Part shown: positions 1 to 36,000 of the stretch, one piece after another
Layout: each line of letters opens with the position of its first letter
How positions within the stretch are numbered: the stretch's first letter is position 1
Assembly (NCBI GenBank): GCA_951406725.2
Contig: OX597831.1
Location: forward strand, 52,824,001 to 52,888,000
From: Octopus vulgaris
Lineage: Eukaryota
Length of the DNA: 64,000 nt
Direction of reading: 5' to 3'
Position numbers: made by a program

Positions 1-3000
1 TTGATAGTAGAGACATATTGATCACAGTGGAGTATGATGATAGCACTAAATACATGAGGATGAAAATGAGGGCATAGTACTGATAGTGAGTATACACTGA
101 TGACAGCAGAGTCATTTTATCTTACATTTAACATCCGTTTTCCATACTGGCATGGATTGGACAGCTTGACAGGAATTGTCAAGGCCAGGGGCTACACCAG
201 GTTTCATAGTCTGTTTTGGTTTGGTTTCTAAGGTTGGGTACCTTTCCTAATGCAAACCATTCCACAGAGTGTACTGGGGGCCTTTTATGTGGCACCAGCA
301 TCAGTGCTTTTTACATAGCATCAGCACCCACACCAATGCTTTTTACATGACACCTTGGTTTTAGGACCTCAGTTCTGTTGTGGTGAGCAGGTCTTCTGAA
401 GTACAGTAAAGTGCCATATATCTTAGTACTCTGTCATCTCCTTCATAAGGTTCAGCATTTTGAAATCAACCTTCAATATTTCATGGATGTCTTCCTGGGT
501 CTTCCTCTTCCACAACTTCACTCCACTTTAAGTGATCAGCACTTCTTTATGCAACAGTCCTCAGCCATCGACATCACATGACCAAACCAGCATAGTTTCC
601 ACTCTTGCACACCGCATATAATTCCTCTTATACTCATGGAGTCTTATGCTCATGTAGGTATGGAGTTGATAATAGGGATATATATATATGTTACATGAAA
701 TTTGAAGACAACAGTTGACTATGTTAAGACATTGATGACACTGGAAATGTTTATAAAGATAGCTGCTTGGTTTGAAGGAAAATGCAGTAGCCATGGCCTT
801 TGCAAGTTCTCTGAGACCAGTGAGAGAGATGTTATTAATGTTCTGATTAAACTATTGCAAGGCAACACCTGTGATTAAAAACATGAGCAGGAAGTGCATG
901 TGCATATGTGCATGTGTGTGTGTGCGTTTGTGCATGTGTGTTTGTGTGTGTGTGTGTGTGTGTGTGTGTGTGTGTGTGTGTGTATGTGTGTATGTGTGTG
1001 TGTGGGGGGGGTGATGCAAACAGGAAAAATTTAACTCAAAACATGAGTTAATATATACTTTATATTGTAACAGTAAAAAGAAAGAAAAGACAGTATGTCT
1101 TTGAAACAGAGGGTAGCTTTTCTATAGATGTGGTGAGATGATGAAAAGTGAAGTATAGTAGTAGGTAATAGTGAATGACTATGAAGTTACATCCATCCGT
1201 TTTCTCTGTCCACTATTCCTAGGAGGGTCATGGAGGTAAAGTTCTTTGGCACCTCCTCCATAAGATCCTATCAGAACCAATCATCATTACAATTCAGCAA
1301 AAAGGGGTCAATCAAATAAGTCCCAGACTGAAAAATAAGTACTGCAGTCAATTTGTTCAACTAAACCCTCTAAGGCTGTGCCGCTAGGTGTCCAGTCCAC
1401 GGGCTCAGCTTGAATAATCCATCTTACAATCCTTTACTGTGACATTCTAATCACACTTTGAAGTTAGAGAGATGATTATAAAGTTGTGAATTCTGCTGTA
1501 CATGCACACTAAATTTTAACATTCTAGCTCACTTCTGCTATTTACTGCAGTGCTTGGAAGGAACATGTGTAGCATGTGATCATTGCATTGACCATAACAG
1601 AGATAATGATGATGGAGGTATATTTATGACATGGGAGGCATGGAAAGGAAGAAGGACAATGACTTTGAGAGCATCCAAGATGGCTGAAAATGTTGATCTT
1701 GACAAATGTTCTGGGGGACCTGCAACCAACATAACTGAGAAAAACATTGCAGATGTGCAGCTGTGAGAAGAAATGGTCGAATCACCATCCATGAGTTATC
1801 CATGAGTGCAGATTAGTTGTGGCTCAGTTCAGTCCATTATCACTGAAGATTTAGATATGAGACATGTGTCTGCCAAGTTTGTGTCGAAACTGCTTTCTGC
1901 TGACCTAAAAGACACTCTCGTTTCAGTTGCACAAGATGTCTTTTGTGTTGAGGACAATGAAAACTTTTTGAAAACTTTACATAGGCCTCTGAGCAGGTAT
2001 CATCACGTTTTTGGCAAAATTTGATGCAGATTCTCTGCTCAACTTTCTCTGTCGTGGTCAATGCGATGATCACACGCTACACACCTTCCTTCTAAGCACT
2101 GCTGTAAACAGTAGAAGTGAGCTAGAGCATTAAAATTTAGTGTGCAGGCACAGCAGAGTTTAAGGTCAACATTTGCCAAGCAGCTTCATTCTGCATGCTT
2201 TAGCTTCGTTACTATGACAACATCCTGGACACTTATTGATCAGACCACATATGTTTAGAGCTGTACTGACTGATGACAGTAAGCTATGTTGTTTATTGTA
2301 GAATCATACAGATAATGGTAAAGATAGGATCATATCTACAGAGTAATAAAGGAACAAGGGTTGAAACAACACTCACCAGCATGTGAGTTGACAGGAATGC
2401 ACATCTCTCCTGGTAACTGGTAGAAATCCTTAACAGAAGCCAAAACAAATTCTGGCATGCACTGACATATGCCATCCTTACACTTCAGATGCTGTTCAGC
2501 TGCACAATCAGCAGTAGTGGTGCACTGTTCATTTACAATTGATTTTCCAGGTAACACACAAAAGCCATTTTTCAACACAAATGGGAACTTGCAGCCACAG
2601 CGCTGTCTGGGTTTACATTCTGTTGAGGATGGGTAGCAAACTGTTGTGCTATTGCACTCTCTTCCAATGCCAGCAACTGATCAATACAAAAGTAAGATGA
2701 GAGGAAAACAAAAAGATTTAAAACATGGATAATATAAGTGATATCAGTATTAAGTTTTGGCACAAGGCCAGCAATTTTGGGGGAGGGGGTAAGTCGATTA
2801 CATTAACCCCAGTGCTCAACTGGTACTTGTTTATCAATCTCAAAAGGATGAAATGTAAAATTGACCTCTGTGAAATTTGAACTCAGAACTTAAAGATAGA
2901 TGAAATGCTACTAATTATTTTACCTGGCATGCTTATGATTCTGCCAGATCACTGCCTCTGGTTTCAAATTTTGGCACAAGGCCAGCAATTTCAGGGGAGA

Positions 3001-33000: not shown

Positions 33001-36000
33001 CCCCTGGCAGTTTGCTGTGCTTAAGAAAAAGCTAAGTAAGATTGTGGTTGTCTTTGCATACAGGTATGTACTCTGCATCCCTCTTCAGCTGAGCATTCCT
33101 AATTTTGTGGTCTTGTAGGGGCTGGTACCATGTCAAAACAGCCATAGCAGTGCCACATAAAAACACCTGTGCTAGTGCTGAGTGAAAGCACCCAGTACAC
33201 TTTGTAACGTGGTTGGCATTAGGAAGGGCATCCAGCTGTAGAAACCATGCCGAAACAGACTTGGAGCCCGGGTAGCTCTTCAGTTGGCCAACTCCTGTCA
33301 AACTGTCCACTCATGACAGCATGGAAAATGGATATTAAATCATGATGATGATGATGAGATATAAATATATGTGCATGTGTGTGTGTGCATGTGTGTTATA
33401 TATATATATAATAACAAAATAATAAATAAAACATATGCATATATACATACATATATGTACATACCTACATCTATATGTATACATACATGCATATATGGGT
33501 ACAGGACACCAAACAAACGTAGAACACAATTAGAAATGAAAACATAAAATCAAAACCATGGAAACGGACTTTTTCCAAACAACAAAAAAACAGAGTACAA
33601 GACAGACAACACAAGGAATATTCCCCTTCTTCAGCTGCCCCTGCTTTGACTACTCCGTGTTTTATATATATATACATAAATATATACATACATGCACAAG
33701 TTAAAATGACAAATATGTTTGTTGCTAATACTGTAAAGTAAAGGATTACCTGGAACACATCTTGTCCTGTCAAAAGAATGTCTGAAGCCAGAGTCACATA
33801 TGCAAATGTAGCCATCACATGATCTGGCCATGCAAGTTGAATGCAGTGGACATTCTGAACTGAGACGGCAACGATTAAATATTAAGGGAACTGAAAAGAA
33901 AATCAACAAAAGGCACATTATATCTAAGATATGCATATTCCATAAGTAAATAACAAGAAACAATATTAAGTTTATATAAAACTATTGGTATATTTTAAAT
34001 ATATGTATGTTTTGTATGCATGAAATTTATACTTATATTATGTATTTGGCACAGGTATGGCTTTATGGTTAAGAAGCTTGCTTTGCACAGCACCTTGGAC
34101 AAGTGTCTTCTGCAACAGGCTTGAACTGACCAATGCCTTGTCAGTGACTTTGAAACATGGACTGAGAGGCTGATTATTAGAGACCCCCATCACACACCTT
34201 TTTTGGGGGGGGGGACCAGGAGGAGGTAGTGAGGCTATAGAGCCTTGCTTCGGTTGAGAGCAAATAATATAAATTTTGTCCTATTGTATGTGTGATATAT
34301 ATATACATAGAGAGGGTGAGAGTGAGGGAAAGATAGAGAGATAGGTAGACAGGAGACAGTCAATAGAGAGATAAATTAATAGACATAAAATTTTAAATAC
34401 ATATATATGCTATATTGATAATTATATACTTAATTATATCAAGGGATCGGATGAGCCTCTCCATGCATTAAAAATAGACACCAAATGGTGCTAAAAACTG
34501 CCTTAAATGTCCTATAGCACAGGTTTTATTTTGCGCTGACCACTTGATAAAATCATTAAAGTGATTTCATCCTTTGTTTTATATGTGTATATATGTATAT
34601 ATATCTCTTTCTCTCTTTCTCTCTTTTACTTGTTTCAGTCATTTGACTGCGGCCATGCTGGAGCATCGCCTTTAGTCGAGCAAATCAACCCCGGGACTTA
34701 TTCTTTGTAAGCCCAGTACTTATTCTATCGGTCTTTTTTGCCAAACCGCTAAGTGACAGGGATGTAAACACACCAGCATCGGTTGTCAAGCAATGCTAGG
34801 GGGACAAAGACAGACACACAAACACATATATATATGCATATATACGACAGGCTTCTTTCAGTTTCCATCTACCAAATCCACTCACAAGGCATTGGTCGGC
34901 CTGGGGCTATAGCAGAAGACATTTGCTCAAGATGCCATGCAGTGGGACTGAACCCGGAACCATGTGGTTGGTTAGCAAGCTACTTACCACACAGCCACTC
35001 CTGCACCTATATATATATATATATATATATATATATATATATATATATATATATATATATATATATAGAGAGAGAGAGAGAGAGAGAGAGAGAGAGAGAG
35101 AGAGAGTAAGGTATGTGTGTTTGTTTGTGTCTGTGTATCTCTATTTGTATCTCTATCTGTGTCAACCACCACTTGGCAACTGCAGTTGGTTTGTTTACAT
35201 CCCCATAACTCACCACTTTGGTGAAAGAGACTGATAGAATGAGTACCAATCTTTAAAAAAAAAGTATTGGAGTTTTCCTTGATTAATTGTTTCATGGCAA
35301 TGCCCTAGCATGTCCACAATCCAATGATTGCAAAAGAAAAGATAAAATATATCATGAAACACAATAACCAAAGATAGCACCCTGGTAGATAAAGCAATTA
35401 AGGATATGAAGTCTGGTGGTGTGGGTCATGGCCTAGTCCCTCATATTGTAAATCAGGTAGTTCATGAAGGAGTCATACCCAATAACTGACTTAGCAGCAC
35501 CATAGTCAACTGCTACAAAGGTAAAGGCGATGCTATAGATGGAAATAACTACAGGAGTATCAAACTGCTGGATCAGGTGATGAAGGTCACAGAGAGGGTC
35601 ATAGCCCAACTAATTAAGGAGAGAGTTTGCTTAGATGAGATGAAGTTCAGTTTTGTGCCTGGTAGAAGCACCACTGATGCTATATTTCTGGTAAGGCTAC
35701 TGCAGGAGAAATACCAAGCCAAAGATAAACCCTTATACTTGGGTTTCATTGACTTGGAGAAAGCCTTTGACAGGATCTCCCAATCCCTTATTTGGTGGGC
35801 GATGCAAAAACTAGGGATAGGTAAGTGGTTAATAAGAGATATACAGGCCCTGTACTGGGATGCTGTCAATAAGGAGAAAATGTAGAGGGAGTGCAATGGG
35901 AGGAGGAGATGGAGTGAATGGGAGAGGAAGGGTGGGGAAGAGATTGGAGAGGCAGGAAGGAATAGAAGGCGAGTAGCAAGTGAAGTGAGAGTGAGAGTGG

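What the first reader, a model, noticed from the sequence alone, without database searches (positions are those of the whole stretch)
2377..33890. A 20-cysteine super-repeat: three 6-Cys modules possibly closed by a cross-exon disulfide clasp
Seen: every A module has 7 Cys (C-x5-CP-x4-C-x4-C-x4-C-x-C-x10/12-C) and every B exon has 12 Cys. The exon after each of B1-B4 begins with one lone Cys (ECN, ECN, MCQ, PCN) before a Cys-free linker, giving 7+12+1=20. Inference: the odd Cys of the A module pairs with the trailing lone Cys and staples three EB/EGF-like modules into one compact domain, repeated at least five times on glycosylated linkers. I do not recognise this architecture as a named family.
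Basis: partly seen in the sequence, partly recalled or inferred. Interest (0 to 1): 0.7.

Follow-up and report, generated by a model that had tools for sequence, protein, structure and literature searches.

The report
Clasped triple-EB repeat octopus membrane protein
An octopus gene encodes a membrane glycoprotein made of five copies of a 20-cysteine unit of three EGF-like (EB) modules; molluscs and an annelid share this unit, one extra disulfide probably holds it shut, and its function is unknown.

Summary
Window 2377..33890 (minus strand) holds 11 phase 1-1 exons with the stated Cys counts (A 7, B 12, lone Cys opening the next exon).

The gene starts further upstream, with signal-peptide exons at 44.6 and 41.9 kb. 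It is the orthologue of Octopus sinensis 'fibrillin-1-like' XP_036365453.1, whose junctions match mine 12 of 12. The protein reads: signal peptide, five 20-Cys units on Cys-free linkers, a fifth tail Cys just left of the window (seen in 3 of 3 octopod relatives), TM helix, short tail.

B modules are Pfam EB modules. A is a weak EB/EGF-like variant. 'Fibrillin' is a misnomer.

The unit is conserved in chiton, bivalves, gastropods, octopods and the annelid Owenia. Pairing of A-Cys4 with the tail Cys is supported by:
- parity at both protein ends;
- constant x9 spacing;
- co-occurrence in 57 units (42 both, 11 neither, 0 tail-only, 4 A4-only), though the 11 are a single chiton clade, so one event;
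- an AF2 model (Patella) that orders the whole unit including the tail Cys at pLDDT 93-98.

No Cys-Cys distance could be read, so the disulfide remains inferred (about 0.7). This is a new variant of a known kind, of moderate interest.

The parts
44572..44619 (-). Coding exon 1: start codon and first 16 residues of the signal peptide; donor CAG|GTAATT, phase 0
   Evidence: tblastn of P0007 residues 1-18, 94% identity; reading of the strand
41849..41882 (-). Coding exon 2: rest of the signal peptide (11 codons + 1 base, phase 1 donor G|GTAAGA)
   Evidence: its split codon with A1 gives V, as in P0007
33750..33890 (-). Exon A1: first 7-Cys module, directly after the signal peptide, with no leading lone Cys
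   Evidence: Pfam EB 16.6 bits, below the 24.3 cutoff
30568..30870 (-). Exon B1: two 6-Cys EB modules (12 Cys)
   Evidence: Pfam EB 41.2 bits, 2 stretches
20036..20329 (-). Exon A2: tail Cys of unit 1 (ECN), 55-residue Cys-free linker, 7-Cys module of unit 2
   Evidence: EB 16.2 bits
16746..17048 (-). Exon B2: two EB modules (12 Cys)
   Evidence: EB 48.1 bits; 95% identical to O. sinensis P0001
15185..15394 (-). Exon A3: tail Cys of unit 2 (ECN), 27-residue linker, 7-Cys module of unit 3
   Evidence: EB 14.8 bits
13361..13663 (-). Exon B3: two EB modules (12 Cys)
   Evidence: EB 44.2 bits
9490..9738 (-). Exon A4: tail Cys of unit 3 (MCQ), 40-residue linker with an R-x-K/R-R motif, 7-Cys module of unit 4
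   Evidence: EB 19.6 bits
8312..8611 (-). Exon B4: two EB modules (12 Cys)
   Evidence: EB 35.6 bits
6690..6989 (-). Exon L5: tail Cys of unit 4 (PCN) and an Asn/Asp-rich linker with 8 N-x-S/T sequons
5189..5401 (-). Exon A5: rest of the linker and the 7-Cys module of unit 5
   Evidence: EB 27.0 bits, above the cutoff
2377..2676 (-). Exon B5: two EB modules (12 Cys). The exon holding the unit's tail Cys, the TM helix and the cytoplasmic tail lies left of the window
   Evidence: EB 31.0 bits; continuation seen only in relatives

Best explanation
The interval is the main body of an octopus gene for a type I membrane glycoprotein. The protein reads: signal peptide, five copies of a 20-Cys unit separated by Cys-free linkers that carry sequons, a juxtamembrane C-x8-C pair, one TM helix, and a cytoplasmic tail of about 25-30 residues.

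Each unit has three EGF-like modules of the EB type and a roughly 10-residue tail. Module 1 (A) carries an extra Cys, the fourth of its seven, at the tip of its main beta-hairpin. The tail carries one Cys nine residues after the last Cys of module 3.

Inferred: these two odd Cys form an intra-unit disulfide. The long last loop and tail of module 3 would then strap back onto module 1 and lock the three modules into one rigid, closed body. The 18 other Cys pair within their modules in the EGF manner.

Shown: the exon structure, the Cys pattern, EB membership of the B modules, orthology, the architecture in relatives, and conservation of the unit across molluscs and one annelid.

Inferred with less confidence: the protein displays five rigid knobs on flexible stalk segments at the cell surface, as an adhesion, ligand-binding or glycocalyx component. 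A conserved R-x-K/R-R site between units 3 and 4 might allow shedding of units 1-3.
For: Gene model:
- 11 phase 1-1 exons plus 2 signal-peptide exons.
- All 12 of 12 junction residues equal those of NCBI's O. sinensis model P0007.

Architecture:
- P0007 and P0002 show a signal peptide, 5 x 20 Cys, C-x8-C, and a TM helix.
- EB passes Pfam's cutoff in 5 of 5 B exons and 1 of 5 A modules, and is the only family that passes in 11 of 11 whole relatives.

Family:
- A profile of the five B exons (it contains neither odd Cys) found 480 representatives at E<=1e-3.
- 22 of the 151 scanned carry an A-type module.
- 20 of 20 looked up are lophotrochozoan: 4 chiton, 10 bivalve, 5 gastropod, 1 annelid.

Pairing:
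1. The first A has no Cys upstream, and the last B is followed by a tail Cys in 3 of 3 octopod relatives. Only intra-unit pairing leaves nothing unpaired.
2. The tail spacing is x9 in all 5 of 5 units of P0007 and 4 of 5 of P0002, with x10 in the last.
3. In 57 units of 22 proteins, 42 have both odd Cys, 11 have neither, 0 have the tail only and 4 have A-Cys4 only. In the 11, x4-C-x4 becomes x9, which identifies the odd Cys as the fourth of A. Because the other 18 Cys stay, the two lost ones must have been partners, or both unpaired within the chain.
4. AF2 of the Patella single-unit protein with a 16-row in-register alignment gives pLDDT 93-98 from residue 31 through the block holding the tail Cys (171-180, mean 94). 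Disorder starts only from 188. 158 residues are >=90. A-Cys4 (C47) lies in the turn between strands 40-44 and 50-54, and the tail shows strand/bridge states at 172-173 and 176-177. pTM is 0.48 for a 394-residue chain that is otherwise linker and TM helix. By my own arithmetic on the pTM formula, that needs about 150 residues in one rigid frame.
Against: - No tool returned coordinates, so the distance between the two odd Cys was never measured.
- The AF2 model of the octopus fragment P0008 (5-row alignment) puts the tail Cys (179) in a segment below pLDDT 50 (178-212).
- All 11 units lacking both Cys form one clade of chiton paralogues, so the joint loss is a single event.
- Four units keep A-Cys4 without a tail Cys. 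P0028 unit 3 and P0126 unit 1 look like gene-model artefacts. P0064 unit 1 is unclear. Pinctada P0156 looks genuine, because the TM helix follows directly.
- Co-occurrence and parity fit an A4-to-tail bond between two chains as well as one within a chain.
- No expression or functional data exist. The function is a guess from the architecture.
Confidence: 0.7

Rival explanations
1. The two odd Cys of each unit bond between chains. A-Cys4 of one molecule bonds the tail Cys of another, or like bonds like, giving covalent dimers or networks at the cell surface, as the free Cys of teneurin EGF2 and EGF5 do.
For: - Both Cys are predicted at exposed places: a hairpin tip and a terminal tail.
- Co-occurrence and joint loss fit a trans A4-tail bond equally well.
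- The Pinctada unit with A-Cys4 but no tail Cys is easier to accept if the Cys can serve in trans.
Against: - AF2 of a single chain orders the tail at pLDDT about 94 as part of the unit, which a segment waiting for a partner chain would not normally show.
- The constant x9 spacing to the last module Cys suggests a fixed intramolecular geometry.
- Ten free Cys per chain would be unusual.
Confidence: 0.15
2. The lone Cys belongs to the unit downstream. It bonds the odd Cys of the A module encoded in the same exon, closing the linker into a loop (8 Cys per A exon).
For: The lone Cys, the linker and the next A module share one exon in units 2-4, so every exon would then hold an even number of Cys.
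Against: - A1 follows the signal peptide with no Cys before it, and the Cys after B5 has no A module after it. Two Cys would be left over at opposite ends of the protein.
- The linker length varies from 27 to 156 residues, while the distance to the preceding module is fixed at x9.
- In unit 5 the lone Cys and the A module lie in different exons.
- In the Patella model the tail is ordered next to its own unit while the linker after it is disordered.
- In the P0008 model the N-terminal lone Cys (residue 8), with its downstream A3 present, lies in a segment below pLDDT 50 (1-30).
Confidence: 0.04
3. The two odd Cys are not partners. Each is a free thiol, is modified, or pairs with one of the other 18 Cys in a non-EGF disulfide pattern.
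For: No disulfide has been mapped for any EB module. No solved relative was found by sequence or by fold at E<=0.001.
Against: - The chiton clade lost both Cys and kept the other 18. If the odd Cys had other partners, two orphan Cys would remain.
- 0 of 57 units have the tail Cys alone.
- Free thiols conserved in extracellular modules across molluscs and an annelid would be unusual (general knowledge).
Confidence: 0.06

Closest known systems
EB module proteins (Pfam PF01683 / InterPro IPR006149)
   Same: The B exons pass the EB model (31-48 bits against a 24.3 cutoff, two stretches each). EB is the only Pfam family that passes in 11 of 11 relatives. The modules have the six-Cys EGF-like spacing C-x5-C-x6-C-x4-C-x-C.
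   Different: Generic EB proteins among the hits are plain runs of 6-Cys modules (for example P0013 and P0014). Here the modules come in a fixed triplet: a 7-Cys first module, a long last loop (x19-21) in the third, a tail Cys, then a linker. One paper calls EB 'the uncharacterized EB domain' (PMC9679249, passage read). I found no description of the triplet.
Teneurin EGF repeats 2 and 5 (EGF modules with an odd Cys)
   Same: EGF-like modules whose Cys count is odd, with the extra Cys used for a bond outside the module (PMC9058538, passages).
   Different: In teneurin the bond is between chains. Here there are two odd Cys per unit that come and go together, and the tail is ordered in cis in the AF2 model. 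The teneurin EGF model (PF23106) scores 13.2 against a 24.3 cutoff on B3 only, so this is not a member.
Plasmodium Pvs25 / Pfs25 / Pfs28 (several EGF-like modules in one small surface protein)
   Same: They are among the best Foldseek matches of both models. That their modules pack into one compact body is recalled, not tested here.
   Different: The matches are weak: E 2.9e-3 at best, TM 0.17-0.28, rmsd 11-16 A. They have a different module number, and no sequence relation was found.
Fibrillin / MEGF (the names given by automatic annotation)
   Same: Long extracellular arrays of Cys-rich EGF-like modules.
   Different: No TB domain and no calcium-binding EGF at Pfam's cutoffs in any of 11 relatives. 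cEGF reaches its cutoff only in chiton P0011. EGF_CA scores 10.6-13.2 against 27 on the window's A modules. The names are not supported.
Drosophila Dumpy-type arrays (EGF-DPY-EGF, ZP domain)
   Same: EGF-like modules interspersed with short Cys motifs in a membrane-anchored giant protein (recalled). DPY is a weak hit on A1.
   Different: DPY scores 16.7 against a 27 cutoff. No ZP domain in the relatives.

Membership tests
EB module (Pfam PF01683) | Score at or above Pfam's gathering cutoff (24.3 bits) | tested here: met
   B1 41.2, B2 48.1, B3 44.2, B4 35.6, B5 31.0 bits, two stretches each. A5 scores 27.0. Whole relatives score 30.8-190 bits, 11 of 11.
EB module (Pfam PF01683), A modules | Score at or above the gathering cutoff for the 7-Cys first module | tested here: inconclusive
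   1 of 5 passes (A5, 27.0). A1 scores 16.6, A2 16.2, A3 14.8 and A4 19.6, all below 24.3. The A module is a divergent EB/EGF-like variant with an inserted Cys.
EGF-like domain (Pfam EGF clan models) | Gathering score of any EGF model; six Cys with beta-hairpins | tested here: not met
   hEGF, cEGF, EGF_CA, EGF_3, EGF_MSP1_1 and others are all below their cutoffs on the window's exons. The AF2 models do show paired short strands per module, and the best (weak) fold matches are EGF arrays. It works like EGF but is not a member by HMM.
Fibrillin | TB (8-Cys) domains and calcium-binding EGF arrays | tested here: not met
   No TB or EGF_CA at E<=0.01 in P0007, P0002 or 9 other relatives.
Dumpy-like / ZP-anchored arrays | DPY modules at cutoff and a ZP domain | tested here: not met
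   DPY best 16.7 against 27. No ZP in 11 relatives. The relatives end in a TM helix: 14 of 23 family proteins have a C-terminal TM-like segment.
Membrane-tethered mucins | Long Pro/Thr/Ser-rich tandem repeats; SEA domain | tested here: not met
   The window's linkers have S+T+P 0.19-0.36 against 0.21 in the modules. No SEA domain. Some relatives do have long Cys-free stretches (1510 residues in P0055) or Pfam mucin matches (P0012 passes at 43.3 against 34.7; P0055's Mucin-like is below cutoff, 17.3 against 28.7).
Teneurin-type EGF | PF23106 at cutoff; free Cys used for interchain dimers | tested here: not met
   PF23106 scores 13.2 against 24.3 on B3 only. Interchain bonding cannot be tested with these tools.
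20-Cys triple-EB unit (proposed here) | 7-Cys module, two 6-Cys modules, and a lone Cys 7-15 residues after the last, followed by a Cys-free linker | tested here: met
   Four complete units and a fifth lacking only its tail Cys lie in the window. Five of five are complete in P0007. 42 of 57 units in 22 lophotrochozoan proteins are complete.

The most novel reading that the evidence does not exclude
The 20-Cys unit is an autonomous, still unnamed domain type: a 'clasped EB triplet'. A disulfide from the hairpin tip of module 1 to a strap after module 3 closes three EGF-like modules into a ring-like rigid body. This way of stiffening EGF arrays would be conserved from annelids to cephalopods, and it defines a lophotrochozoan family of type I surface glycoproteins. 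One chiton lineage dispensed with the clasp and expanded the unclasped form.
Probability: 0.5. Interest if true: 0.55.

Novelty: new variant of a known kind. Interest (0 to 1): 0.4.

Why it matters
EB modules are common in invertebrate secreted and surface proteins but are essentially uncharacterised. No solved structure was found by sequence, and the one paper read calls EB 'the uncharacterized EB domain'.

A conserved three-module unit with a likely inter-module clasp gives three things:
- a concrete, expressible construct of about 150 residues for the first structure and disulfide map of EB modules;
- a rule for annotating a family that pipelines now name fibrillin, MEGF, mucin or prion-like at random;
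- a natural pair of clasped and unclasped paralogues in a chiton for testing what the clasp does.

It does not bear on a long-standing open question.

Tried and rejected
- Contact test (complex prediction). I tested the A3 module (P0007 400-446) against the third module plus tail (491-556). The verdict was 'no answer': score 0.05 against a mark of 0.34, the alignment was not used, and the controls were not run. I do not count it either way.
- Word-index searches. Those with the whole Argonauta protein and with family alignment A5 returned only proteins already known (2 each). Low-complexity words filled the candidate lists.
- Alignment A2. It was out of register for most distant multi-unit rows and was not used for folding. 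A3 and A5 replaced it.
- PDB by sequence with the B profile. It gave only weak RNase 4 and huntingtin-interacting protein B hits (E 0.003-0.34), which I take for chance Cys coincidences.
- Foldseek on both models. 0 matches at E<=0.001.
- ESM Atlas. All feature scores were below 0.9 (generic EB/EGF/DPY clusters) and all structure TM values were at or below 0.40. These are leads only.
- First co-occurrence count. It required alignments to reach the tail state, which biased it towards units with a tail. I replaced it with core-anchored counts.
- Three rows (P0016, P0068, P0083) and P0093. These are generic EB arrays that the unit model aligned only loosely. They are not among the 22 family proteins, so they are not in the 57.
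- P0135. It dropped out because its first A Cys is missing.
- Readings considered and rejected: pairing of the lone Cys with the downstream A module (see rivals), and chance or non-coding origin (excluded by splice sites, orthologues and conservation).

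
Full report
**What is in the sequence**

A six-frame scan for Cys-dense frames leaves ten real candidates. All are on the minus strand between 2.3 and 34 kb, alternating a short type (A) and a long type (B). Every other Cys-dense frame is a translated TG/CA microsatellite.

Splice-site analysis gives 11 exons with canonical AG/GT borders, lengths divisible by three, and phase 1 at both ends:
- A1 33890..33750
- B1 30870..30568
- A2 20329..20036
- B2 17048..16746
- A3 15394..15185
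- B3 13663..13361
- A4 9738..9490
- B4 8611..8312
- a linker exon L5 6989..6690
- A5 5401..5189
- B5 2676..2377

The Cys counts are 7, 12, 1+7, 12, 1+7, 12, 1+7, 12, 1, 7, 12, which sums to 99: five times twenty minus the last tail Cys.

The A pattern is C-x5-C(P)-x4-C-x4-C-x4-C-x-C-x12-C (x10 in A5). Each B exon holds two modules of the form C-x5-C-x6/7-C-x4/5-C-x-C, followed by x10/11-C or x19/21-C. The lone Cys (ECN, ECN, MCQ, PCN) sits nine residues after the last Cys of B in all four cases.

**Extent of the gene and its relatives**

I built, searched and folded no exon-joined model of the window's gene. All whole-protein work used stored public proteins of relatives.

The B2 exon finds two relatives (2 hits among 27 candidates): Octopus sinensis 'fibrillin-1-like' at 95% identity and an Argonauta hians hypothetical protein at 70%. 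The O. sinensis cluster holds the full-length isoform X1 (P0007, XP_036365453.1, 1095 residues) and O. bimaculoides fragments.

All 12 of 12 junction residues predicted from my exon borders equal those of P0007. The signal peptide is encoded by two further exons in the window, 44619..44572 and 41882..41849.

In the relatives, A1 follows the signal peptide directly. After B5 come a fifth lone Cys (T-C-N, 9-10 residues after the last Cys of B5, in O. sinensis, O. bimaculoides and Argonauta), a Ser-rich stretch, a C-x8-C pair, a TM helix and a short tail. The window itself cannot show it.

Between Octopus and Argonauta, all 100 Cys of the five units keep their places while the linker lengths drift.

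**What family it is**

Pfam's EB module (PF01683, cutoff 24.3 bits) is passed by 5 of 5 B exons (31.0-48.1 bits, two stretches each). Only 1 of 5 A modules passes (A5 at 27.0; the others score 14.8-19.6). All EGF-type models stay below their cutoffs.

In 11 of 11 whole relatives EB is the only family that always passes. There is no TB domain, no calcium-binding EGF, no ZP and no SEA. The automatic names are therefore not supported: fibrillin-1-like, MEGF6/10, integumentary mucin, prion-like Q/N protein 25.

No solved structure is related by sequence or by fold at E<=0.001. The best weak fold matches are multi-EGF proteins (Pvs25/Pfs25, NELL2, EMR2).

**How widespread the unit is**

A profile of the five B exons contains neither odd Cys, so it is unbiased with respect to them. 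It found 480 representatives at E<=1e-3 among 1.84 billion, with 114 at <=1e-10. I could examine only the best 150.

By strict patterns, 22 of 151 proteins scanned carry an A-type module and 11 carry at least one complete unit. All 20 that I looked up are lophotrochozoan:
- four chiton paralogues (Liolophura);
- ten bivalve proteins;
- five gastropod proteins;
- one annelid protein (Owenia fusiformis).

Fourteen of 23 family proteins have a C-terminal TM-like helix. A unit tree shows two subfamilies. One has the tail Cys at x9 (molluscs). The other has it at x13-15 and longer inter-module spacers (annelid and bivalves).

**Is there a clasp?**

Four lines of evidence bear on it.

1. Parity. Pairing the lone Cys with the downstream A module leaves one orphan at each end.

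2. Geometry. The distance from the last module Cys to the lone Cys is fixed, while the linker after it varies from 27 to 156 residues.

3. Covariation. I anchored on core Cys only, using a unit HMM built in scripts from stored proteins. This scored 57 units in 22 proteins: 42 with both odd Cys, 11 with neither, 0 with the tail Cys only, and 4 with A-Cys4 only.
   - In the 11, the A module reads C-x5-C-x5-C-x9-C-x-C. So the odd Cys is the fourth of A. The other 18 Cys are kept, which argues that the two lost ones were each other's partners.
   - The caveat is that all 11 form one clade of chiton paralogues nested among 20-Cys units. That is a single event followed by amplification.
   - Of the four exceptions, P0028 unit 3 (the protein ends in what looks like read-through) and P0126 unit 1 (an old oyster model without a linker) look like artefacts. 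P0064 unit 1 is unclear. Pinctada P0156 looks real.

4. Structure prediction.
   - With a 5-row alignment, the octopus fragment P0008 folds its three modules at pLDDT 77-90, with A-Cys4 at the hairpin tip. Its tail Cys stays below 50. That result is inconclusive.
   - With a 16-row alignment checked for register, the Patella single-unit protein folds at pLDDT 93-98 from residue 31 through the block that holds the tail Cys (mean 94). Disorder begins only at 188, and 158 residues are >=90. pTM is 0.48, although 60% of the chain is linker and TM helix. By my own arithmetic on the pTM formula, this needs the whole unit in one rigid frame.
   - The tool returns no coordinates, so I could not measure the Cys-Cys distance. 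The bond stays inferred.

**Rivals**

An interchain version of the same bond fits the covariation equally well and has a precedent in teneurin EGF2/EGF5 (PMC9058538, passages read). The ordered tail in a single-chain model and the fixed spacing speak against it, but weakly. Pairing with the downstream module, and unrelated roles for the two Cys, are disfavoured by parity and by the joint loss.

**Function**

Nothing is known. The architecture suggests a surface adhesion, ligand-binding or glycocalyx protein: five rigid Cys-knotted bodies on Cys-free spacers that carry 1-8 N-x-S/T sequons each, a single TM helix and a short tail. This is inference only. The octopus linkers are not strongly mucin-like (S+T+P 0.19-0.36).

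**Novelty and literature**

I ran five full-text searches:
- EB module / PF01683 / EB domain-containing (24 papers, only listings and abstracts seen, all incidental or about other meanings of 'EB module');
- six accessions and locus tags of family members (0 papers);
- 'domain-bearing protein 25' / EB domain / mollusc;
- fibrillin-1-like with octopus (0 papers);
- one passage of the flat-oyster genome paper that calls EB 'uncharacterized' (PMC9679249; its Table S7 was not opened).

None describes the three-module unit or its odd Cys. Subscription journals are not covered by these searches. I rate the finding a new variant of a known kind.

**Left unchecked**

- Genome contigs holds only prokaryotes and was not used.
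- Only the best 150 of 480 profile hits could be examined.
- The exon left of the window and the expression of the gene were not seen.

Noticed in passing
window 9640-9665 (minus strand, linker in exon A4): A dibasic R-x-K/R-R motif followed by D-V lies in the linker between units 3 and 4. It reads RFKR in the window, O. sinensis and O. bimaculoides, and RSRR in Argonauta. It is a possible proprotein-convertase site that would release units 1-3.
   Followed up: partly
window 6690-6989 (exon L5): The linker between units 4 and 5 carries a long Asn/Asp tract (N+D 0.48) and 8 sequons. The tract differs in length and order from O. sinensis and is much longer and Asn-rich in Argonauta, so it is an unstable low-complexity region inside a coding exon.
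   Followed up: partly
window 14650-14960, 17741-18049, 22656-22972, 29622-29856, 30158-30290, 31183-31466, 32787-32907, 33182-33354, 49941-50221, 51852-52116, 57203-57375: A roughly 300-bp interspersed repeat (69-90% identical copies, both orientations) is scattered through the introns and upstream region. It looks SINE-like but I did not classify it.
   Followed up: partly
window 52389-53456 (-) and 35490-35885 (+): Two open frames match reverse transcriptase (RVT_1, 53.1 and 40.7 bits). The first also has a PHD-like stretch just below its cutoff. They are LINE-type retroelement remnants upstream of, or within, the first introns.
   Followed up: partly
window 1489-1603 (+) and 2046-2160 (-): An inverted duplication of about 115 bp (86% identity) lies just downstream of exon B5, in the next intron. 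It has no Pfam match and its nature is unknown.
   Followed up: partly
O. sinensis proteins P0004-P0006 against P0001/P0003/P0007: The same 90% cluster holds proteins under two gene names on one contig: 'fibrillin-1-like' and 'uncharacterized protein LOC115219958'. The second set starts at an internal Met of B1. This is either a duplicate locus or a double annotation.
   Followed up: no
Liolophura sinensis proteins P0011, P0012, P0028 (neighbouring accession numbers, one contig) and P0025: The chiton has several paralogues on one contig. They include a 2126-residue protein with at least 10 units that lack both odd Cys, and a protein (P0025) that mixes both unit types. Together they form a natural comparison set for the role of the clasp.
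   Followed up: partly
Haliotis rubra P0041, unit 1: In this unit the odd Cys of A sits 3 residues earlier (C-x1-C-x7-C instead of C-x4-C-x4-C) and the tail Cys 3 residues later (x12 instead of x9). This is a single case of a possibly compensating shift.
   Followed up: no
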